NCBI GenBank assembly: GCA_903824595.1
Contig: CAIJXH010000002.1
Coordinates: 7,209-71,208, forward strand
Length of the DNA: 64,000 nt
Direction: 5' to 3'
From: an uncultured bacterium
GTDB taxonomy: Bacteria; Patescibacteriota; Minisyncoccia; Phycocordibacterales; UBA2100
How positions within the stretch are numbered: the stretch's first letter is position 1; each line of letters starts with the position of its first letter. Positions 36,739-43,302 of this stretch are shown piece after piece. The position numbers and the translations under genes were made by a program. The notes beneath the pieces are model-generated. The model ran no database searches, was not told the origin of the DNA, and was given only the letters and a program-made list of their open reading frames with translations.

Positions 36739-36844
36739 GATCGTACACAGGAATTCTCCATGTGCGTGCCATACAATCCTTGCACTTTCGTAGTTTTCAT
36801 GTACGTTTTCGAGTAGCATACATGTTCTTTTTTTGGAGGATGAG

Positions 36845-37453
36845 ATGACCGAGGCGTTCATTGCACAACTTACAGAACACGACCTCACGGAGGTTGCCGT
36901 GCATCACACTTTGAGACAGGTTCTAGGATACGGAGACGCACTATACATCACCGTTGAATCACCAGGCTCGTATCTTGAACATCGAAGTATGGCAAACCTA
37001 CTTGAGCGTTTTGACGAAGACGGGGATGAGGAAAAATACCACGAAATCTCAGGTAGATTTCTCGGGATTGCGCGCGCTCTCAACATACGTCTCAACATTG
37101 AGCCATACCTCAACGTGATCAGGAATGTGTCCGAGACTGGTTACAGGGATTTCGTCATAAGCCGTGGCTCATACCTCACTGCACTTATGGTGACAAAAAA
37201 ATTGGAGCATTTGGGATTTACACTGGTAGATTCGGCGACATTCATAAAGATGGATGCTCGCGGTGTTATCGATCGCGATGCAACAAAACTTGCGTGGCAA
37301 CAATTACGTGTCACCGGAAAATTGGTTATCCCTAGCACATATGGATCTAATCCTGATAAGTCTATACACATATGCAATTCAAGAACCGTAATAACAGCGC
37401 TCGCGGAACTACTCGCCAGTTCTGGAATGTACGAGCGAGTCGTCATCGTATAA
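36845..37453 (+). CDS. hypothetical protein (~200 aa)
   Basis: A GGAGG RBS lies 5 nt upstream of the ATG at 36845, and a hairpin plus T7 terminator follows. GC is lower than in the core genome. No family was recognised. Confidence 0.5.
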   Translation: MTEAFIAQLTEHDLTEVAVHHTLRQVLGYGDALYITVESPGSYLEHRSMANLLERFDEDGDEEKYHEISGRFLGIARALNIRLNIEPYLNVIRNVSETGYRDFVISRGSYLTALMVTKKLEHLGFTLVDSATFIKMDARGVIDRDATKLAWQQLRVTGKLVIPSTYGSNPDKSIHICNSRTVITALAELLASSGMYERVVIV

Positions 37454-37464
37454 CTCCACACGTC

Positions 37465-37498
37465 AACGCCCCATATCCATTATGGGGCGTTCTTTTTT
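37465..37498 (+). terminator. rho-independent terminator
   Basis: The hairpin aacgccccata-tccat-tatggggcgtt is followed by cTTTTTTat. Confidence 0.65.
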
Positions 37499-39095
37499 AT
37501 CCAGATAAGGGTAGATCAACAGTAAACACCGCACCCTTGCCATCACCTGGAGAACTGGCAGATATATGCCCACCAAATCTTTCTACTATTCCTTTTGCTA
37601 AATACATGCCATTTCCTGTTGATTCAGGATTATCGTCACGACTGCGGGCATCATGACCGCCTTTCGTAAATAGAATCCTCATTGTCTCTCGTGATATTCC
37701 TTTGCCTGTGTCACTTACAGAGAATATTGCTCTGTCACCAATTTTTTCAACAACCACACGCACAGACCCACTCGCGGTGTAGTGCCATGCATTCTCTAAA
37801 AGAGCGAAAACCACGTGCAAACTAAGAGCAGTTTCATCGACGTCGACCATGATTTGTTCTGTTGGCACCTGTACTGCAAATTCAATTCCTTTTCGCTCGA
37901 ACAATCTCCGCATAACTGCACATTGGTTTCTTACAACATCTACTAAATCGATTTTTTCTAATTCGAAACGCAAAGCACCTTTATCAAAGTCAACAGCAGC
38001 AATCGTCGCCACCATGAGCTTATTTCCACGCATCGCGTCATCTTCTCTCTCCTCGGCGTATTTCTGCTGTTCTAATGCAGAAGACTTGTCTCTCGCGAGC
38101 TTTCCGTACCCGATCCACGCTCGATACAAGAAGTTCTTGGCGCCATGACTGATGACACTAAGAAGATATTTTTGTCCTTTATTTGCCTTATCGAGCTCAT
38201 TCGCCATTTTATCGAAGAAGAACGCGAGAATCGAAAACAGGATGATTGTAATCGCTATAACAACGCGCATTGTATGAAAATCTCTCACGACGAATAATGT
38301 TGAAGAGATAGCGACAACCATCGCTACAAGAATCGCTCGAGTACCCAGAAGACGAAGCTTGAATATTTGAAATCGTACGATCGTATACACGAGAAACGCG
38401 AGAAAGCTCACCATTCCAAGAGAGCCTATAAAGCTGATCTGCTGAATTCTAGTAATTTGACCAATGATATTGGATCCGAAAAATAGACTTAGAAAAGCAA
38501 CTATTCCACATGTAGTAAACATAATCTCTCCACTAAACGCATCTCGATCTTTGGTAGAACGATATCGAAAAATACCTAGCATGATAATGTAGATTATCGC
38601 CACAACCTCAAGAAAATACATCAAGTAGAAAAGAAACCCAGGCACACCCTCACAGCTATCCAAATCATACGAAGTGATGTTGAAAGTGGTCGGCAACAGC
38701 AAAAAGACCGCAGCCATAATCCCCATACACAACGATTTGAGCCATCGAGGTATGTCTGCATGATTCTTATCCGTTACAACATGTGAAAAACATACTGAAA
38801 ATATGAAAATTGGCACCTCGAATACAGGGGTAAGCTGCCACGCAAAGTGCAAGACATCGTTGTACGACGTCACCCACAGTACAAGAATATCCAACACCCA
38901 AAGCGCAAAAAAGGAAGTGATTCCAAATAAAAGCCTCGATGGTAAGGAATGCCTGTCTTTACTGAATACATATGCGCCAAGAAAGACTGAAATAATAATG
39001 ACGGGAACATAGGTATAGAAAAGAAGCGTTGGCGCGGTAGAGAAATCAAAAATAAGAAAAGACGGGATTTCGGTACCACAGATTAATGGATTCAT
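37497..39095 (-). CDS. sensor histidine kinase with a large polytopic N-terminal membrane domain
   Basis: About 8 TM segments are followed by a HisKA-like region (LLSVISHGAKNFL) and a HATPase_c domain (N, G1 and G2 boxes: ...DTGKGISRE...GNGMYLAKGIVERFGG). The ATG at 39095 was chosen over the TTG at 39134, and the region is AT-rich. Confidence 0.7.
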   Translation of the reverse strand: MNPLICGTEIPSFLIFDFSTAPTLLFYTYVPVIIISVFLGAYVFSKDRHSLPSRLLFGITSFFALWVLDILVLWVTSYNDVLHFAWQLTPVFEVPIFIFSVCFSHVVTDKNHADIPRWLKSLCMGIMAAVFLLLPTTFNITSYDLDSCEGVPGFLFYLMYFLEVVAIIYIIMLGIFRYRSTKDRDAFSGEIMFTTCGIVAFLSLFFGSNIIGQITRIQQISFIGSLGMVSFLAFLVYTIVRFQIFKLRLLGTRAILVAMVVAISSTLFVVRDFHTMRVVIAITIILFSILAFFFDKMANELDKANKGQKYLLSVISHGAKNFLYRAWIGYGKLARDKSSALEQQKYAEEREDDAMRGNKLMVATIAAVDFDKGALRFELEKIDLVDVVRNQCAVMRRLFERKGIEFAVQVPTEQIMVDVDETALSLHVVFALLENAWHYTASGSVRVVVEKIGDRAIFSVSDTGKGISRETMRILFTKGGHDARSRDDNPESTGNGMYLAKGIVERFGGHISASSPGDGKGAVFTVDLPLSG

Positions 39096-39289
39096 ATCGC
39101 GATATATAGCATTACGCACCTCAATGTACCACAAACAAACCTCTCATGGTATAGTGAAAATATGCGGAATGGGAACATGTGGCTACTAGTGGCGCTATTG
39201 ACACTTGGTTTCGCTTCCATTTGCTTTACCTACTATCAGACGATAGTCCAACGATCATATCTTAGCGTCCACAATGGCGACTTTGGCGG

Positions 39290-39682
39290 CTAGACAGTTT
39301 GATGATATTTTACCCCTCGCTCAATATAATTCTTCTCAACTTCTTTGCAATCGAAATAATTTTTCACAAACTCTTCTATATTGCCAGCTGAAAATTTCCC
39401 ACAAGAATACACATCAATAGAAATAAAGTTTTTCGGAGCCAGTGTGTGAATCTGAATCCCACTTTGTATGAGCGGTATCCAACCAGACAACCCCGCCAAT
39501 TCAGGATATTGAACCGCGTCACTCCTGAAAATAAACGGTGGCGATTGTTTGTTCATTTTGAGCCGCACGACTAGATCCTCAAGAAATTGGTAGCACAAAT
39601 TCAAATCATCGCACACACCAGGTCGACAACCGTACAAATCAAGGGTTAGCAAATATCCAAACGGCTTTTCTGCAGTTTCCAT
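39290..39682 (-). CDS. pyruvoyl-dependent decarboxylase of the S-adenosylmethionine decarboxylase (SpeH/SpeD class 1) family
   Basis: A 130 aa protein in which ...IPLIQSGIQIHTLAPKNFISIDVYSCG matches the proenzyme cleavage/Ser and (E)SHISIHTWPE...DVFTCG motifs of prokaryotic AdoMetDC and related ArgDC enzymes. Confidence 0.65.
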   Translation of the reverse strand: METAEKPFGYLLTLDLYGCRPGVCDDLNLCYQFLEDLVVRLKMNKQSPPFIFRSDAVQYPELAGLSGWIPLIQSGIQIHTLAPKNFISIDVYSCGKFSAGNIEEFVKNYFDCKEVEKNYIERGVKYHQTV

Positions 39683-39730
39683 GGTTGGATTGTAACAAAT
39701 CTATGGTATCAAACAACATCAAAAGTATCT

Positions 39731-40657
39731 CTAGCTGCGTATACGTACAGTGTATTTTTTGAGAAAAGCACAAGGCTCATAGCTTAGTTTCGATTTTCGC
39801 AATCCCAGATTCCCTAAATCTTGCTCCCAGTTCCAAACGGCAATACCCTGTGCCTGTAAATGAACCGCCACTCTATTCGCTAAAAATTCATAAATTCCTT
39901 TGTACATCAGATCGGCTTTCCAGTATTGACCTAAACATATTCCCTGTCCAACGATTTCATCGATTGTGAACGCTTGCATTTCCCCACCAATGAAGACGCC
40001 ACCAACAAGCAATGAGTGGGACGACGCAGTCTGCAGTAAACGCTCCAAAGAGGTTTCCTCATGTTCCAAAAAATATTCTTTGTTCGAGGATTTTTTACTA
40101 TGTTCCCATCGCCGAATTACGGAGCGAATCGAGGCCTGTACGTTTGTATCAGCGAGATCGGCAAACTCAACTACTGCTCCAGAATTTTCTCTCATAAAGC
40201 GTTTTAGCATCTTCCTCTTTGATTCAAATTTTGCACCAGAATATTCTGCAATTTCAGGCACGGATAATAAGTATTCGAAACTGTCACGATCTTCTTCCAC
40301 CTCAAGATCAGATCTGTTTATCAAGAGCGCAGATATTTCTGGCACAAGCCGAAGCACGGGAGAGATTTTCATGCTTTCCGCAAATGTTATTAGATCTAAT
40401 GCTGTGTGTGTCGCATCATTATCTCCAAGAAACGAAAGGAATGGCTCCTCTGTATGATAATCGGAAAATTGTACTGCCAAATTTCCACGAAGGTCGGAAA
40501 TTTGTCTGGAGGAATTAGTGTCCCACGCCCACAGTGATGTAAAACCGAAATCAGAATATTGAGGAAATTTGCTTGTATATGATTCGATAATCTCGCGATC
40601 TGAAATTTCAATTTTTTTGAATTCAGGAAATCGAGGAAGTACTTGTTGCATAAACAC
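39731..40657 (-). CDS. DUF2156 / lysyl-phosphatidylglycerol-synthase C-terminal-domain-like protein (candidate aminoacyl-tRNA-dependent transferase)
   Basis: The C-terminal stretch ...GIYEFLANRVAVHLQAQGIAVWNWEQDLGNLGLRKSKLSYEP resembles the conserved GLRxFKxKFxPxW tail of the MprF C-domain/DUF2156. This is a stand-alone 308 aa protein. Confidence 0.5.
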   Translation of the reverse strand: MFMQQVLPRFPEFKKIEISDREIIESYTSKFPQYSDFGFTSLWAWDTNSSRQISDLRGNLAVQFSDYHTEEPFLSFLGDNDATHTALDLITFAESMKISPVLRLVPEISALLINRSDLEVEEDRDSFEYLLSVPEIAEYSGAKFESKRKMLKRFMRENSGAVVEFADLADTNVQASIRSVIRRWEHSKKSSNKEYFLEHEETSLERLLQTASSHSLLVGGVFIGGEMQAFTIDEIVGQGICLGQYWKADLMYKGIYEFLANRVAVHLQAQGIAVWNWEQDLGNLGLRKSKLSYEPCAFLKKYTVRIRS

Positions 40658-40670
40658 CTTTCATGCGTGA

Positions 40671-40988
40671 TTAGGCTAGAGACATTATTACAATAGACGC
40701 AGCTCCAAGCATCACTCCAAGCGCCACCATCAAACTCAATGACTCACCAAAAACAAATATCCCGATGAGCACAGTAACAATGAAGCTTGCAACCGACCAA
40801 ATTGGACCAACTATCGAGAGTAGATTCCTTTCAGTCAACGCCAATAGCCACACACCTCCTGCCGCCGCATATGCCGCTATGGCGACACTACCCCACATTG
40901 CGGACGGGTGAATGGCAAATTTCTTAGACGCATAATCGCCTACGGCATATACTACTATTGACACACCAATCCAAGACAAATAATTCAT
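40671..40988 (-). CDS. small multidrug resistance (SMR/DMT) family four-TM transporter
   Basis: A 106 aa protein with four hydrophobic helices. The start was set at MNYLSW to avoid overlapping the upstream response regulator. Confidence 0.55.
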   Translation of the reverse strand: MNYLSWIGVSIVVYAVGDYASKKFAIHPSAMWGSVAIAAYAAAGGVWLLALTERNLLSIVGPIWSVASFIVTVLIGIFVFGESLSLMVALGVMLGAASIVIMSLA

Positions 40989-41019
40989 AGCGAGTACTTG
41001 AGCAGCTACCAAAACAAGC

Positions 41020-41424
41020 CTATCCCTGTACCACCTTTTTATGCGCCACAATCTTTCTTATGTGTTCCAAAATTTCTGCAGGACTCATCGTTGATTTGAC
41101 TATATATCCACTCGCCCCAAGACTCGTCGCACGATCACACTCTTGCTGATTGTCATCATTGGTCAACGCAATCTTTATTGATCCAACTCCTAAATTTTCA
41201 TTTTTTAACTCTTCAAGAAATGTAAAGCCGTCCTTTTTAGGCATTTTTATATCGAAAACAATAATGTCTGGCTTGAATCCTGTTCGCAATGAATCCATCG
41301 CGTCATCGACATTTAATTTTGCCGTGACGTGCAGTCCGCCTTGAATAAATATCTCGGCAAGTGTATTTGCGAGCAACACATCATCATCAACCATCAAAAC
41401 ATCAATTCTCTTATCCTGATTCAT
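41020..41424 (-). CDS. response regulator, receiver domain only (CheY-like)
   Basis: A 134 aa protein with the receiver signatures DVLMVDDD, the phospho-acceptor Asp in IIVFDIKMPKKDG, and the KIALT...GASGYIVKS region. Confidence 0.8.
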   Translation of the reverse strand: MNQDKRIDVLMVDDDVLLANTLAEIFIQGGLHVTAKLNVDDAMDSLRTGFKPDIIVFDIKMPKKDGFTFLEELKNENLGVGSIKIALTNDDNQQECDRATSLGASGYIVKSTMSPAEILEHIRKIVAHKKVVQG

Positions 41425-41465
41425 AAGTGGTGCTTTATATTGTTATTACATGTTTTTAGTATATT

Positions 41466-42287
41466 TCAGCTATTGCATTGCGGAACAACTGCAGATTTCG
41501 TTCGAATATCGTGCCATCCAAATTGGAGGTAAATCTTCCGAGTTACAAAACCAAGATACCCGAGAGCCATTAGACTTGTTCCTATTACCCCCATAATACT
41601 ATACGCATCGTGCGACAACGATAACAGCAACAAACTGAAATAAATACAAAACGTATCCGCCATCGAGACACTTTCTGTCAATGTACCGTAGAGAAACACC
41701 AGAGAAATCACAGCAATTAAAAACAAGACAACGCGTTCGATGAAAGATATTATTGGGATTTGTATATGCATCAATATTTGTATATGCATGAAGAACCATG
41801 AGAAAAGAAGTACGCATAGTGCCATAATCGCAGCAACATAACGACGTGTATTTGAATGAGAACCAGATCTATTACTCCCCATGACTCGAAGCAAATACAA
41901 CGCACCAACACAATACAAAAGCACGCTGATTCTTGCAGAAATAAGTAGAGCAAGGTTCTCCTCAATGACACCAGCGTAAACCGCAAATAACATTCCAGCA
42001 CCACTCATAACAAGTCCTGCTCCTGTTGTACGCAGACTATACATAACTTTCTCTGAAATATCACTCCATATACTACTTCGCCACATGATAACTACGCCAG
42101 ATATGATGTACGTCATCGCTAAGATGGACAAAAGGGCTATGGATGAGTGAATTTCTTCCCGCGCGAGCACGGTCAAGACAATTCCGCACATTGCCACACA
42201 GAACACTCGCTGATAATTATTTAGTCGATTTTGCTGAAAAACAAACATACCGTACCGAAATACTAGCATTGGCGAATTTTTTAGCAA
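41466..42287 (-). CDS. hypothetical polytopic membrane protein (273 aa)
   Basis: Six to seven predicted TM helices. The protein is AT-rich and contains an internal direct DNA repeat (tgcatatacaaat x2). Confidence 0.45.
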   Translation of the reverse strand: MLKNSPMLVFRYGMFVFQQNRLNNYQRVFCVAMCGIVLTVLAREEIHSSIALLSILAMTYIISGVVIMWRSSIWSDISEKVMYSLRTTGAGLVMSGAGMLFAVYAGVIEENLALLISARISVLLYCVGALYLLRVMGSNRSGSHSNTRRYVAAIMALCVLLFSWFFMHIQILMHIQIPIISFIERVVLFLIAVISLVFLYGTLTESVSMADTFCIYFSLLLLSLSHDAYSIMGVIGTSLMALGYLGFVTRKIYLQFGWHDIRTKSAVVPQCNS

Positions 42288-42352
42288 CCCTCCATGTGTG
42301 TATTCGTGTGCGTATAAGCGGCATCAAAGCGTACCACTGATGTAATAGTGAG

Positions 42353-42423
42353 CGGGCCCACAAGGATTCGAACCTTGATCAGCGGTTTTGGAGACCGCCA
42401 TTCTACCATTGAACTATAGGCCC
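42353..42423 (-). tRNA. tRNA-Trp (anticodon CCA)
   Basis: The reverse complement GGGCCTATAGTTCAATGGTAGAATGGCGGTCTCCAAAACCGCTGATCAAGGTTCGAATCCTTGTGGGCCCG forms a cloverleaf with anticodon loop CTCCAAA. Its 3' end faces the AT-rich island. Confidence 0.85.
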
Positions 42424-42761
42424 TAGAGAGGATCGAAAATGAACATCACCATTCATTTTCTCCGAACGAAGAGTCTATACGATCCTCATGTATGGACTCC
42501 GATGTTCCTCGATGATCCGAGGAATGAGACAGTATACTACTTTTTTGATTCTTTGTGTTTTGTCTGTTTTTTGCACCACTTGCAGAACTTTTGAAGCTCG
42601 ATTTTACGAGTAACCAGTTTGCGATTCTTTCGTGACCAATAGTTGATGCGCGAACATTTCCCGCATGCGATTTTTATGAGCTGGTCTTGTGACATACGAT
42701 ATATACAGAAATATACAGGGCTTGAGCTGCCTCGTCAAATGGATCAGACACTCGCAATTTT

Positions 42762-43163
42762 TTAGCAGATTTTATTCCACGGACCAAACCCTGCGCCTTG
42801 ATTGAACAGCGCTCTTATGATCGTGTCAACAACAAGCCACGCAGAGAGCACAATCACAAGCCCGATTGCCACATTGGTGAAGATGCTTTTCGCCTTTGCA
42901 GCAGCTCCCGTATCACCTCCTGCCATCAAATACACCCATCCTGCATACGCAAACAACACCGAGGACAGGAAAACCACCATGTAAATACCCGTATTGACCA
43001 CATGCTGCGCCGTGTTCGCAAGCTCACATATAGTACATGCGGTGCCGCCTCCCACGCTCGTCCCATCACAGGTGACAATTCTACTACTCATATCGGATGC
43101 AAATCCAAGCATCGGGATGAAATAGGATACCAAACACGCAACAGCAGCACGTGCACGATTCAT
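42762..43163 (-). CDS. small secreted/membrane protein with VirB2/TrbC-pilin-like topology (hypothetical)
   Basis: A signal-like N-terminus (MNRARAAVACLVSYFIPMLGFA) is followed by two hydrophobic helices (GIYMVVFLSSVLFAYAGWVYLMAGG and IFTNVAIGLVIVLSAWLVV) and four Cys. The longer ORF start (43238) was rejected because it overlaps tRNA-Tyr. Confidence 0.4.
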   Translation of the reverse strand: MNRARAAVACLVSYFIPMLGFASDMSSRIVTCDGTSVGGGTACTICELANTAQHVVNTGIYMVVFLSSVLFAYAGWVYLMAGGDTGAAAKAKSIFTNVAIGLVIVLSAWLVVDTIIRALFNQGAGFGPWNKIC

Positions 43164-43210
43164 GCAAACTATTGTAACATGAACAAAGATGCTGCATACT
43201 GTACGCGTGC

Positions 43211-43294
43211 GCGTCGGTGGCAGAGCGGTCAAATGCATCGCGCTGTAGACGCGACGGACTTTGTCCTACGGGGGTTCGAATCCCTCCCGGCGCA
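43211..43294 (+). tRNA. tRNA-Tyr (anticodon GTA), type II with long variable arm
   Basis: GCGTCGGTGGCAGAGCGGTCAAATGCATCGCGCTGTAGACGCGACGGACTTTGTCCTACGGGGGTTCGAATCCCTCCCGGCGCA has anticodon loop CTGTAGA and a variable stem-loop GGACTTTGTCC. Confidence 0.85.
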
Positions 43295-43302
43295 CTGTAT
43301 AA

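What the first reader, a model, noticed from the sequence alone, without database searches (positions are those of the whole stretch)
36800..43300. AT-rich island next to tRNA-Trp/tRNA-Tyr encoding a two-component system plus a pyruvoyl decarboxylase / DUF2156 transferase / SMR exporter set: candidate small-molecule module
From about 36.8 kb to tRNA-Trp (42353-42423) the composition falls well below the mid-50s % GC of the flanking guaA and clpB (by eye roughly 40% or less). Every gene from 37.5 to 42.3 kb is on the minus strand and tightly spaced: a polytopic sensor histidine kinase, a SpeH-type pyruvoyl decarboxylase, a stand-alone DUF2156/MprF-C-like protein, an SMR transporter, a receiver-only response regulator and a polytopic membrane protein. 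DUF2156-family proteins include aminoacyl-tRNA-dependent transferases. The co-occurrence of a decarboxylase, an aminoacyl transferase-like enzyme and an exporter under two-component control suggests production and export of a modified amine or aminoacylated metabolite, not ordinary polyamine synthesis. A 340-bp gene-free spacer, a VirB2/TrbC-like small protein and tRNA-Tyr complete the region. There are no integrase or transposase genes, and I found no direct repeat of the tRNA-Trp 3' end at the left edge, so any acquisition is old or used a different mechanism.
Basis: partly seen in the sequence, partly recalled or inferred. Interest (0 to 1): 0.7.

Follow-up and report, generated by a model that had tools for sequence, protein, structure and literature searches.

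The report
Mobile amine-modifying gene module, Patescibacteria
A low-GC six-gene block beside tRNA-Trp is one copy of a widespread, apparently undescribed gene module of ultra-small (CPR/Patescibacteria) bacteria; it joins an amino-acid decarboxylase, a double-GNAT acyl-transferase and a small exporter to a dedicated sensor kinase, most likely to make and export an acylated diamine.

Summary
Six co-directional genes (37497-42287, minus strand) have GC 0.39-0.46 and GC3 0.37-0.42. The host's long ORFs have GC3 0.54±0.08, and the tetranucleotide distance z-score is about 11. Pfam confirms the HATPase_c kinase, AdoMet_dc, LPG_synthase_C/DUF2156 and the receiver-only regulator.

- The "gene-free spacer" holds rpmG (L33).
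- rpmG, the pilin and both tRNAs are host core, not island.
- The decarboxylase scores below the AdoMetDC equivalog cut-off and has ornithine-decarboxylase-like (SpeDC) motifs.
- The "SMR" call is weak.

The main result is comparative. Around stand-alone DUF2156 genes in 80 species genomes, a module recurs:
- a sensor kinase in 44 of 47 complete loci;
- an EamA transporter in 35 of 47;
- a pyruvoyl decarboxylase in 22 of 47, drawn from three AdoMet_dc clades or the unrelated PvlArgDC family.

In two genomes a PurD-like glycine–amine ligase takes the DUF2156 position. The module is lower in GC than its host in most of 67 relatives' loci. The window's closest relatives lack it at tRNA-Trp.

Best model: decarboxylase → diamine → N-acylation → export, under kinase control. 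The acyl donor is unresolved, because the nearest solved homologue (2HQY) binds acetyl-CoA. Lipid aminoacylation remains a serious rival.

The parts
37465..37491 (.). Bidirectional terminator-like hairpin (11-bp stem, 6 GC pairs, T-run) between convergent ORF206 and the kinase gene. It marks the left end of the operon.
37497..39134 (-). Sensor histidine kinase, 545 aa. About 8 TM helices at the N-terminus (HisKA_7TM-like), followed by a DHp domain (H330) and a CA domain. This is the 'type A' kinase that accompanies DUF2156 modules.
   Evidence: HATPase_c 1.3e-17. H330, N448, D475/G477/G479 and G507/G509 are invariant or nearly invariant in its family. PF16927 is found on distant homologues. 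AF2 model has pLDDT 75.6; the Foldseek best hit is HK853. It is 38% identical over its full length to the kinase of L004.
39290..39682 (-). Pyruvoyl-type decarboxylase of the AdoMet_dc fold, 130 aa. The processing/catalytic Ser, His and Cys are present (..LIQS-GIQIHT..VYSCG). It is probably an ornithine (SpeDC-like) decarboxylase rather than an AdoMet decarboxylase.
   Evidence: PF02675 4.1e-15. TIGR03330 44.7 bits against a cut-off of 75.65. 70-81% identical to a large CPR clade whose consensus is PLIESGIQIHTLTPKNFISIDVYSC. SpeDC diagnostics are taken from PMC10407285.
39731..40657 (-). Stand-alone DUF2156 / LPG_synthase_C double-GNAT acyl-transferase, 308 aa, no TM segment. It has a conserved basic helix, 142-157.
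   Evidence: PF09924 1.9e-18, covering 10-297 of 298 profile positions. AF2 pLDDT 94.5. Foldseek: 2HQY TM 0.81, MprF C-domains about 0.6, FemX, Sbb17/Sba18. Family profile against PDB: 2HQY 3e-38. Helix net charge +4.5 in proteins of net charge -4.5.
40671..41051 (-). Small 4-TM SMR/DMT-like membrane protein. The likely true start is Met22, giving 113 aa and coordinates 40671-41009. It is the presumed exporter and takes the place of the 10-TM EamA protein found in most other modules.
   Evidence: EamA E=0.0019. EmrE subfamily E=1e-4, aligned from residue 22. Called as 113 aa on the identical contig L001. EamA is next to DUF2156 in 35 of 47 complete loci.
41020..41424 (-). Receiver-only response regulator, 134 aa, with acidic pocket DDD, phospho-acceptor Asp in 'IIVFDIKMP', and the conserved Thr and Lys. 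It has no output domain.
   Evidence: PF00072 6.9e-18. Sequence. Receiver-only regulators also flank 11 of 47 related modules.
41466..42287 (-). 273-aa polytopic membrane protein with no family. It is the first gene of the low-GC block and has no counterpart in the 80 related loci. It contains an in-frame 18-nt tandem duplication (41758-41792).
   Evidence: No Pfam or NCBIfam match. Singleton in clustering. Not significantly related to the C2 family. Repeat D4.
42352..42423 (-). tRNA-Trp(CCA). This is the right border of the island and the point where synteny with relatives ends.
36833..37453 (+). ORF206, convergent with the kinase gene. GC3 is intermediate (0.47). Only faint similarity to the aspartate-kinase N-terminus. 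Whether it belongs to the island is uncertain.
   Evidence: No Pfam match. NF006234 E=1.7e-4, 20.9 bits against a cut-off of 237. Adjacent to the kinase on contig L177 as well. GC3.
42537..42695 (-). rpmG (ribosomal protein L33).
   Evidence: PF00471 3.2e-14. 69-79% identical and syntenic in L090, L091 and L094.
42762..43238 (-). T4SS-pilin-like small protein. It is host core, not part of the module. The listed ORF start overlaps tRNA-Tyr, so the real start is probably further downstream.
   Evidence: PF18895 9.2e-8. 46% identical and syntenic in L090. GC3 0.51.

Best explanation
The low-GC block 37497-42287 is a horizontally acquired copy of a gene module that circulates among Patescibacteria.

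Proposed mechanism, with each step marked as shown or inferred:
1. The AdoMet_dc-fold pyruvoyl enzyme decarboxylates a basic amino acid, most likely ornithine to putrescine. The fold and the catalytic Ser/His/Cys are shown. The substrate is inferred from motifs and from the swap with PvlArgDC-type enzymes in sister modules.
2. The soluble double-GNAT DUF2156 protein, working at the inner face of the membrane, N-acylates that amine. The fold is shown. The acceptor is inferred from gene linkage and from replacement by a PurD-like carboxylate-amine ligase. The donor is unresolved: an aminoacyl group from aminoacyl-tRNA, as in MprF, FemX and Sbb17, or acetyl from acetyl-CoA, as suggested by 2HQY.
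3. The SMR/DMT-like 4-TM protein exports the product, acting as a dimer. This is inferred; in most sister modules a 10-TM EamA protein takes this role, and in one an ABC exporter.
4. The 7TM sensor kinase and the receiver-only regulator tune the module. Because the regulator has no DNA-binding domain, this is probably by protein-protein control or phosphorelay. Catalytic motifs are shown; the signal and the output are unknown.
For: Recurrence:
- In 80 species-representative loci centred on DUF2156 homologues, my ORF clustering and HMM counts find, within 6 kb of the 47 complete loci: a histidine kinase in 44, EamA in 35, the accessory pair C2+C4 in 30 or C7 in 11, a pyruvoyl decarboxylase in 22, and a receiver-only regulator in 11.
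- A control of 80 clpB-centred loci gives 8 with a kinase, 2 with EamA and 0 with a decarboxylase.

Decarboxylase slot filled by different enzymes:
- At least three AdoMet_dc clades occur (window-type ESG/QSG..IQIHT..NF..YSC; canonical-like AESHISIHTFP; ETSSITIHC). The unrelated PvlArgDC family (PF01862, 1.7e-29) also occurs.
- The closest DUF2156 homologue for which context is available has AdoMet_dc 5 nt upstream (L180).

Acyl-transfer slot swapped:
- L004 and L172 carry EamA, a window-type decarboxylase (76% identical), a PurD-like ATP-grasp protein and a type-A kinase (38% identical to the window's kinase).
- The ATP-grasp protein scores 110-115 bits on purD against a cut-off of 288, and its N-domain is unmatched. 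It is therefore a paralogue of a glycine-amine ligase rather than purD itself.
- L176 links the two layouts: DUF2156, window-type decarboxylase, EamA, C7, kinase.

Chemistry is plausible:
- Foldseek places the model beside tRNA-dependent amide synthases that acylate small-molecule amines (Sbb17/Sba18, FemX) (review PMC12945691).
- A basic helix (+4.5) is conserved in otherwise acidic proteins.

Not AdoMetDC:
- The score is below the TIGR03330 cut-off.
- CPR SpeD homologues have been shown to be ornithine decarboxylases, e.g. Ca. Kaiserbacteria OGG79367 (PMC10407285).

Mobility:
- The module is lower in GC than its flanks in most of 67 relatives' loci, by 4.6 points on average. The difference is -10 to -17 points in hosts above 50% GC, and -9.4 points in the window.
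- Relatives L090, L091 and L094 share the stretch from tRNA-Cys through clpB, tRNA-Tyr and L33 to tRNA-Trp (L090 also has the pilin gene). After tRNA-Trp, L090 and L091 have miaA (L090 also a small Nudix-like ORF), and in all three no gene beyond it matches the module.
Against: - No enzyme activity, substrate or product is shown for any component.
- Only about half of the complete DUF2156 loci have a decarboxylase within 6 kb. The amine link is therefore not obligatory, whereas the kinase link (94%) is. This could mean that the real partner of DUF2156 is the signalling system or the membrane.
- A natural fusion of DUF2156 to the TM-anchored Cys-rich C7 domain (P0100) puts the enzyme at the membrane, which fits a lipid acceptor equally well.
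- The nearest solved homologue is reported to hold acetyl-CoA, and a family member is implicated in acetylating a protein.
- The window-type decarboxylase also occurs without any acyl-transferase (L007, L170, L174).
- The SpeDC assignment rests on my positional reading of four diagnostic residues from text only, and the window has 3 of 4.
- The genome scan used a single peptide pattern (DFNF[TVS]S[LM]W) that the window's own protein does not match, so the sample is biased.
- The left border of the insertion is not fixed by synteny.
Confidence: 0.4

Rival explanations
1. Split MprF-like envelope-charge system. DUF2156 transfers an amino acid from aminoacyl-tRNA to a membrane lipid on the inner leaflet. 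The SMR/EamA (or ABC) protein flips the modified lipid. The 7TM kinase senses membrane or cationic/acid stress. The decarboxylase contributes proton consumption or a polyamine counter-ion.
For: - Pfam places the protein in LPG_synthase_C, with a match over the full length of the domain model.
- MprF C-domains are the next structural neighbours after 2HQY.
- DUF2156 is fused to a TM-anchored domain in P0100.
- It is almost always next to a polytopic or membrane-associated sensor.
- In one module an MsbA-like ABC_membrane exporter follows (L179).
- From my own knowledge: DMT/SMR-like ArnE/F flip a lipid-linked sugar, and mprF genes are commonly under two-component control.
Against: - There is no MprF flippase domain and no TM segment.
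- TM-score to MprF is only about 0.6, at 13-16% identity. A family profile finds no MprF sequence in the PDB at E<=1.
- The model does not explain why four different decarboxylase types are recruited.
- It does not explain why a soluble PurD-like amine ligase can occupy the same slot.
Confidence: 0.2
2. Decarboxylation/antiport plus protein acetylation. The decarboxylase and the DMT/SMR transporter form a proton-consuming precursor/product exchange system (acid resistance or PMF generation). DUF2156 is an acetyl-CoA-dependent protein acetyltransferase acting on, or controlled by, the adjacent two-component proteins.
For: - 2HQY is reported to have acetyl-CoA bound, and H. pylori DUF2156 protein HPB8_1270 affects lysine acetylation of RNase J (PMC10700544).
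- The DUF2156-kinase linkage (94%) is tighter than the DUF2156-decarboxylase linkage (47%).
- The window-type decarboxylase sits beside transporters even without DUF2156: EamA in L004 and L172, SfLAP and MFS in L174.
- From my own knowledge: pyruvoyl ArgDC with an antiporter is a known acid-resistance design (Chlamydia AaxB/AaxC).
Against: - Under this model the PurD-like replacement of DUF2156 has no rationale.
- The EamA and SMR families are not known amino-acid/amine antiporters.
- No evidence identifies the protein target.
Confidence: 0.15
3. Ordinary, ancestral genes. This would be a normal AdoMet decarboxylase for spermidine synthesis that happens to lie beside unrelated membrane and signalling genes in a locally AT-rich but vertically inherited region.
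For: - The region is next to core genes (rpmG, tRNAs, clpB).
- There is no integrase and there are no repeats.
- L016 also has a DUF2156 module next to clpB and tRNA-Tyr.
Against: - The decarboxylase scores below the AdoMetDC equivalog cut-off, and no spermidine synthase lies in the block.
- The gene set recurs across many lineages, far above the control.
- GC3 of all six genes lies below every one of the 38 long host ORFs, and the tetranucleotide z-score is 11.
- The three closest relatives lack the block at tRNA-Trp.
Confidence: 0.05

Closest known systems
BT_3689 (PDB 2HQY) and other stand-alone DUF2156 proteins, including H. pylori HPB8_1270
   Same: About 300 aa, soluble, double-GNAT fold. 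It is the best structural match (TM 0.81, 24% identity) and the only PDB sequence found by the family profile (3e-38).
   Different: 2HQY has no assigned physiological substrate and is reported with acetyl-CoA bound. HPB8_1270 is linked to protein acetylation. Neither is described in a decarboxylase, exporter and kinase module.
MprF / aminoacyl-phosphatidylglycerol synthases (C-terminal DUF2156 domain)
   Same: Same Pfam domain, matched over its full length. Double-GNAT fold with a basic inter-domain helix. Often under two-component control (the last point from my own knowledge).
   Different: No N-terminal flippase membrane domain. Only 13-16% identity and TM about 0.6. A lipid acceptor is unproven. 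The gene context contains an amine-forming decarboxylase.
tRNA-dependent GNAT amide synthases of natural-product pathways (Orf11/Sbb17/Sba18, PacB, DhpH/DhpK, VlmA) and FemX
   Same: Double-GNAT enzymes that move an aminoacyl group from tRNA onto an amine or hydroxylamine of a small molecule or precursor (PMC12945691). They are structural neighbours.
   Different: Those enzymes sit in actinomycete antibiotic clusters or in cell-wall synthesis. Here the context is a compact module of a few genes in genome-reduced CPR bacteria with its own sensor kinase. tRNA dependence is not shown here.
SpeDC / SpeDA: AdoMetDC homologues neofunctionalised to pyruvoyl ornithine or arginine decarboxylases (Li et al., JBC 2023, PMC10407285)
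   Same: Class 1b AdoMet_dc fold with the processing Ser, His and Cys retained. No AdoMetDC-level score. The CPR origin matches the validated Ca. Kaiserbacteria SpeDC. The clade consensus carries Gln, Thr, Phe and Tyr at the positions I infer to be diagnostic.
   Different: The published SpeDC genes cluster with hss, speE or casdh/casdc for polyamine synthesis. This one clusters with an acyl-transferase, an exporter and a kinase. The window protein has Ala at the inferred Thr position and Gln instead of Glu before the processing Ser.
Polyamine acetylation/efflux pairs (B. subtilis Blt-BltD; E. coli SpeG; SMR-type MdtJI spermidine exporter), cited from my own knowledge
   Same: The same logic: a GNAT N-acylates a polyamine and a small multidrug-type transporter exports it.
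   Different: Single-GNAT enzymes of other families. No decarboxylase and no dedicated kinase in those operons.
PurD (phosphoribosylamine-glycine ligase)
   Same: The protein that replaces DUF2156 in L004 and L172 matches the purD A and C domains.
   Different: It scores 110-115 bits against a cut-off of 288, and its N-domain is not matched. It sits between a decarboxylase and a kinase rather than among purine genes, so it is a paralogue with a different amine substrate (inferred).

Membership tests
DUF2156 / LPG_synthase_C (PF09924) | Domain match above the Pfam gathering score, over the full domain | tested here: met
   67.0 bits against a cut-off of 27.5; profile positions 10-297 of 298
DUF2156 / LPG_synthase_C (PF09924) | Tandem GNAT fold with a basic inter-domain helix | tested here: met
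   AF2 pLDDT 94.5. Foldseek hits to 2HQY, MprF C-domains and FemX. Helix 139-159 has mean net charge +4.5 over 39 sequences.
MprF (aminoacyl-PG synthase/flippase) | Fusion to an N-terminal polytopic flippase domain | tested here: not met
   308 aa, entirely globular, no TM segment
MprF (aminoacyl-PG synthase/flippase) | Aminoacyl-tRNA donor and lipid (PG) acceptor | not testable with these tools
   Needs biochemistry or lipidomics. The nearest solved homologue is reported with acetyl-CoA bound.
AdoMet decarboxylase class 1b (SpeD/SpeH) | AdoMet_dc fold with the self-processing Ser and the catalytic His and Cys | tested here: met
   PF02675 56.5 bits against a cut-off of 25. Ser in 'IQS|G', His in 'IHT' and Cys in 'YSCG' align with T. 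maritima S63, H68 and C83.
AdoMet decarboxylase class 1b (SpeD/SpeH) | Reaches the NCBIfam equivalog cut-off for adenosylmethionine decarboxylase | tested here: not met
   TIGR03330 44.7 bits against a cut-off of 75.65
AdoMet decarboxylase class 1b (SpeD/SpeH) | Pro of the HTWPE motif, conserved in all bona fide AdoMetDCs (PMC10407285) | tested here: not met
   The window has HTLAPK (Ala at the aligned position); the clade consensus is HTLTPK. The position is inferred from my alignment, not from the paper's figure.
AdoMet decarboxylase class 1b (SpeD/SpeH) | Partner aminopropyltransferase (SpeE) | tested here: inconclusive
   None is present in the block or among the examined neighbours. The rest of the genome was not examined.
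SpeDC (pyruvoyl ornithine decarboxylase) | Four diagnostic residues Gln, Thr, Phe, Tyr in the central region | tested here: inconclusive
   The clade consensus S-G-I-Q-I-H-T-L-T-P-K-N-F-..-Y-S-C fits the stated order. The window has Q, A, F, Y. Positions were inferred from the text only. No validated sequence was available for direct comparison.
Two-component system | Kinase with a phospho-acceptor His and N, G1 and G2 boxes; regulator with an acidic pocket and phospho-acceptor Asp | tested here: met
   H330, N448, D475/G477/G479 and G507/G509 are conserved. Fold match to HK853. Receiver domain 65.3 bits.
Two-component system | DNA-binding or enzymatic output domain on the regulator | tested here: not met
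   134 aa, receiver domain only
SMR (small multidrug resistance) transporters | Family HMM match at threshold | tested here: not met
   No PF00893 hit. EmrE subfamily 22.7 bits against a cut-off of 162. EamA 18.9 bits against 28.2. Size (about 113 aa) and 4 TM helices are SMR-like.
tRNA-associated genomic island | Deviant composition, adjacent to a tRNA gene, absent from close relatives at that site | tested here: met
   composition; tRNA-Trp; L090, L091 and L094 lack it
tRNA-associated genomic island | Integrase or recombinase and flanking direct repeats | tested here: not met
   No such gene among the ORFs. No repeat of the tRNA 3' end.
Known anti-phage defence systems (PADLOC) | Any component matching a defence-system model | tested here: not met
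   Only one weak receiver-domain match, to an SduA model at 1.7e-6

The most novel reading that the evidence does not exclude
The module could be a self-contained chemical signalling (autocrine or quorum-type) system of CPR bacteria. The decarboxylase plus the acyl-transferase (DUF2156, or the PurD-like ligase in sister modules) would synthesise a small N-acyl-diamine signal. The DMT/SMR protein would export it. The co-inherited 7TM kinase, with its Cys-rich or polytopic accessory proteins, would sense it and signal through a receiver-only regulator. It would be a horizontally exchangeable 'language cassette' for ultra-small episymbionts.
Probability: 0.12. Interest if true: 0.85.

Novelty: new variant of a known kind. 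Interest (0 to 1): 0.6.

Why it matters
Patescibacteria make up a large share of bacterial diversity. They have tiny genomes and are mostly uncultured, so any multi-gene module that they keep and exchange is likely to matter for their lifestyle.

- **An orphan enzyme clade gets a hypothesis.** The stand-alone DUF2156 clade has 746 50%-identity clusters at E<=1e-30 and no assigned function. This locus gives it a concrete, testable one.
- **A second role for neofunctionalised SpeD homologues.** It suggests a role outside classical polyamine synthesis.
- **A PurD paralogue.** It points to a paralogue that may ligate an amino acid to a diamine.
- **A link to signalling.** It ties these enzymes to one of the few two-component systems these organisms possess.
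- **If the product is an exported acyl-diamine or a modified lipid**, it could bear on host attachment, envelope charge or cell-cell signalling in episymbionts.

Tried and rejected
- Exact look-up of the window's DUF2156 protein found no record. The identical module exists only on short ENA/JGI contigs (L001-L003, L177).
- I tested whether the 275-aa C2 membrane protein of 'type B' modules, or the window's MEM273, is homologous to the kinase's N-terminal domain or to each other. hhalign gave probability 0.3% and the hmmsearch hits were insignificant, so this was rejected.
- Search for an att-type repeat of tRNA-Trp at the left border found none.
- Rfam found only the two tRNAs and no riboswitch.
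- The promoter scan was not above shuffled expectation.
- PADLOC defence models gave nothing meaningful.
- IMG/VR viral contigs held no copy of the DUF2156 clade.
- Foldseek of the full kinase model returned only catalytic-core matches, so nothing was learned about the 7TM sensor.
- Longer DUF2156 proteins were checked for informative fusions. Most extensions are low-complexity tails. One is a P-type ATPase fusion of unclear reality. Only the C7 fusion (P0100) was informative.
- I could not obtain a validated SpeDC sequence: the paper's supplement holds only accession numbers.
- Literature searches for the module (DUF2156, LPG_synthase_C, CPR+MprF, Patescibacteria+agmatine) found no description of it.

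Full report
**1. Observation**

Sliding-window GC drops to 0.39-0.45 between about 36.8 and 43.0 kb. The other 2-kb windows of the 64-kb sequence lie between 0.48 and 0.57. Tetranucleotide distance to the rest of the window peaks at z = 11.2-11.4 for 37-43 kb.

Gene by gene, the six minus-strand genes from 37497 to 42287 have GC3 0.37-0.42. This is below every one of the 38 long ORFs elsewhere (0.541±0.076, minimum 0.43). Soluble proteins are shifted as much as membrane proteins. The gaps between the genes are 155, 48, 13, about 10 and 41 nt. A strong bidirectional hairpin terminator (37465-37491) closes the set.

**2. Gene identities**

Pfam and NCBIfam give:
- a 545-aa histidine kinase with a polytopic N-terminus (HATPase_c);
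- a 130-aa AdoMet_dc protein;
- a 308-aa LPG_synthase_C/DUF2156 protein;
- a small 4-TM protein with only sub-threshold EamA and EmrE similarity;
- a receiver-only response regulator;
- a 273-aa polytopic protein without family.

**3.

- The "340-bp gene-free spacer" encodes ribosomal protein L33 (42537-42695, PF00471 3e-14).
- rpmG, the T4SS-pilin-like gene and both tRNAs have host-like composition. They are syntenic in relatives, so they are not part of the island.
- No integrase and no att-like repeat were found.

**4. Organism and relatives**

Homologues of the decarboxylase (70-81% identity) and of DUF2156 (at most 53%) come almost entirely from Patescibacteria/CPR metagenome bins. The identical module is present on short ENA/JGI contigs.

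**5. Is it an acquired island?**

A metagenome scan with ClpB found relatives L090 (80% identity), L091 and L094 (66% and 65%).

- They share with the window the stretch from tRNA-Cys through two conserved ORFs, clpB, tRNA-Tyr and L33 to tRNA-Trp. L090 also has the pilin gene.
- Immediately after tRNA-Trp, L090 and L091 carry miaA (L090 also a small Nudix-like ORF).
- In all three, no gene beyond tRNA-Trp matches the window's module or anything else in the 64 kb.

Synteny therefore ends exactly at the tRNA. Together with the foreign GC3, this favours insertion, or insertion plus rearrangement. The left border (ORF206/guaA) is not fixed by synteny.

Across 67 other genomes, the homologous module is lower in GC than its own flanks in most loci, by 4.6 points on average. 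In hosts above 50% GC the difference is 10-17 points. The module therefore behaves as a low-GC cassette that moves between CPR lineages.

No copy was found on viral contigs, and nothing matches known defence systems.

**6. The recurrent module**

I took 80 species-representative loci containing DUF2156 homologues. I called ORFs, clustered them and re-counted with family HMMs. Two layouts dominate.

- Type A: [decarboxylase] – DUF2156 – EamA (305 aa) – C7 (about 140 aa, one TM plus a Cys-rich ectodomain) – 7TM kinase (about 547 aa, the window's family).
- Type B: [decarboxylase] – EamA – DUF2156 – C2 (275-aa polytopic, no Pfam) – C4 (92 aa, no Pfam) – soluble GAF-HisKA kinase – [receiver-only regulator].

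| Feature within 6 kb of DUF2156 | 47 complete DUF2156 loci | 80 clpB-centred control loci |
|---|---|---|
| Histidine kinase | 44 | 8 |
| EamA | 35 | 2 |
| C2+C4 | 30 | 0 |
| C7 | 11 | 0 |
| Pyruvoyl decarboxylase | 22 | 0 |
| Receiver-only regulator | 11 | 6 |

The window's copy is a variant. It runs MEM273 – regulator – 4-TM SMR-like protein (in place of EamA) – DUF2156 – decarboxylase – type-A kinase. L176 (DUF2156 – window-type decarboxylase – EamA – C7 – kinase) bridges it to type A.

**7. The decarboxylase**

The processing Ser and the catalytic His and Cys are present. The protein scores 44.7 bits on the AdoMetDC equivalog model against a cut-off of 75.65. It also lacks the Pro of HTWPE.

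Its clade consensus, PLIESGIQIHTLTPKNFISIDVYSC, carries Gln, Thr, Phe and Tyr in the order that Li et al. give as diagnostic for pyruvoyl ornithine decarboxylases (SpeDC). That group includes a biochemically validated Ca. Kaiserbacteria enzyme (PMC10407285). This assignment is my inference from the text. I could not obtain a validated sequence.

In sister modules the decarboxylase slot is filled by two other AdoMet_dc clades or by the unrelated PvlArgDC family (PF01862, 1.7e-29). Recruitment of different pyruvoyl amino-acid decarboxylases to the same slot argues that the module needs an amine such as putrescine or agmatine. It does not argue for decarboxylated AdoMet.

**8. The DUF2156 protein**

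- AlphaFold2 gives a confident double-GNAT model (pLDDT 94.5).
- The best structural match is the stand-alone B. thetaiotaomicron protein 2HQY (TM 0.81).
- MprF C-domains follow at TM about 0.6. FemX and the Gly-tRNA-dependent amide synthases Sbb17/Sba18 bound to streptothrisamine follow at TM about 0.5-0.56.
- A family profile finds only 2HQY among PDB sequences (3e-38).
- A basic helix (net charge +4.5 in proteins of net -4.5) is conserved at the position of the MprF/ErdS α(+) tRNA-binding helix (PMC7334510).

One caveat matters here. 2HQY is reported to contain acetyl-CoA, and an H. pylori DUF2156 protein is implicated in protein lysine acetylation (PMC10700544). The acyl donor of this clade is therefore open.

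The clade is large: 746 clusters at E<=1e-30. I found no description of the module in the literature.

**9. The informative swap**

In L004 and L172 the order is EamA – window-type decarboxylase (76% identical) – a 437-aa ATP-grasp protein – type-A kinase (38% identical to the window's, the best match among the fetched loci). The ATP-grasp protein matches the PurD A and C domains but scores 110-115 bits against a cut-off of 288, with its N-domain unmatched.

PurD ligates glycine to an amine. A PurD paralogue standing where DUF2156 stands is the strongest argument that the slot's job is amide formation on the decarboxylase-derived amine.

**10. Kinase and regulator**

The kinase has all catalytic boxes and an HK853-like core. 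Distant homologues carry PF16927 HisKA_7TM. The regulator is receiver-only, as in sister modules. The output is therefore probably protein-protein control or phosphorelay rather than direct transcription (inference).

**11. Model and rivals**

- **Best model (confidence 0.40).** Decarboxylase makes a diamine. DUF2156 N-acylates it with an aminoacyl or acetyl group. The SMR/DMT protein exports it. The kinase and regulator tune the system.
- **Split MprF-like lipid aminoacylation with a DMT flippase (0.20).** This is supported by the family name, the membrane context and the natural DUF2156-C7 fusion P0100. It does not explain the decarboxylases or the PurD-like swap.
- **Decarboxylation/antiport plus protein acetylation (0.15).** This is supported by the acetyl-CoA and HPB8_1270 data and by the kinase link being tighter than the decarboxylase link.
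- **Ordinary ancestral polyamine genes (0.05).** This is contradicted by composition, recurrence and the sub-threshold AdoMetDC score.
- **Most novel reading not excluded (0.12).** A portable signal-synthesis, export and sensing cassette.

**12. Limits**

- No activity has been measured for any component.
- The genome scan relied on one peptide pattern that the window's own protein does not match.
- Taxon labels of several bins ("Gammaproteobacteria", "Saccharibacteria") are unverified.
- About half of the modules lack a nearby decarboxylase.

**13. Verdict**

The locus is a new variant built from known enzyme kinds, and it defines a conserved, mobile, uncharacterised CPR module. Interest is 0.6.

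Noticed in passing
The order rpmG then tRNA-Trp is conserved in relatives L090, L091 and L094.
   Followed up: yes
window 42762-43238 (-) vs 43211-43295 (+): The longest ORF of the T4SS-pilin-like gene overlaps tRNA-Tyr by 28 nt. The homologue in L090 is 138 aa, so the true start is probably an internal Met.
   Followed up: partly
window 41758-41792: An 18-nt tandem duplication (ATTTGTATATGCAT[C/G]AA ×2) lies inside MEM273. It gives the repeated peptide MHIQI-L-MHIQI and looks like a recent in-frame slippage.
   Followed up: no
L010-L089 (67 loci), e.g. L065, L025, L072: The DUF2156 module is lower in GC than its host flanks in most loci, by up to 17 points (L065: 0.354 against 0.523). Why the cassette stays AT-rich in every host is unexplained. 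Frequent transfer from a low-GC pool, or selection, are both possible.
   Followed up: partly
P0100 (451 aa, JGI metagenome): A natural fusion of DUF2156 (residues 1-297) with a TM helix and the Cys-rich C7 ectodomain that is normally a separate gene between EamA and the kinase.
   Followed up: partly
P0387 (1040 aa): A P-type ATPase (E1-E2_ATPase plus Hydrolase) is fused N-terminally to a DUF2156 domain. It could be a real Rosetta-stone fusion or a gene-calling artefact.
   Followed up: no
L004 10535-11848; L172 6532-7845: A divergent PurD-like ATP-grasp paralogue (purD 110-115 bits against a cut-off of 288, N-domain unmatched) sits between a SpeD-like decarboxylase and a 7TM kinase in CPR genomes. 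It is a candidate amino acid-diamine ligase.
   Followed up: partly
L016, L017, L026, L030, L074, L079, L081, L086 (gene cluster C21); L172, L178, L180: Aminoacyl-tRNA synthetase genes often lie directly beside the module: a 450-480-aa protein that looks by eye like CysRS (not HMM-tested), class II tRNA-synt_2, tRNA-synt_1b, and a HisRS-like gene. This may be plain synteny, or a hint about the aminoacyl donor.
   Followed up: no
L010, L013, L180; L007-L009: A PrmA-like class I methyltransferase (277-285 aa) is inserted between DUF2156 and the kinase in some modules. Another methyltransferase directly follows the window-type decarboxylase in L007. The amine may be further modified, or there may be an aminopropyltransferase-like activity.
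   Followed up: no
L174 5634-6393: Two AdoMet_dc genes lie in tandem (113 aa and 130 aa), followed by a SfLAP-family membrane protein. This is another transporter-linked context for the window-type decarboxylase.
   Followed up: no
L090 12805-14593: The closest relative has an extra stretch of about 1.9 kb between clpB and tRNA-Tyr. It holds a 213-aa ORF and a 267-aa ORF whose motifs (..LGDGHV.., ..FDTDGS..) recall LAGLIDADG homing endonucleases. The tRNA cluster may be a hotspot for insertions.
   Followed up: no
L016 7035-12932: A more distant relative (ClpB 62%) carries a type-A DUF2156 module inserted right after clpB and tRNA-Tyr. This is the same neighbourhood but a different tRNA and a different module type from the window, and suggests independent insertions near this tRNA cluster.
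   Followed up: partly
window 36833-37453 (+): ORF206 has only faint similarity to the N-terminal part of aspartate kinases (20.9 bits) and intermediate GC3. It may be a gene remnant at the island border.
   Followed up: partly
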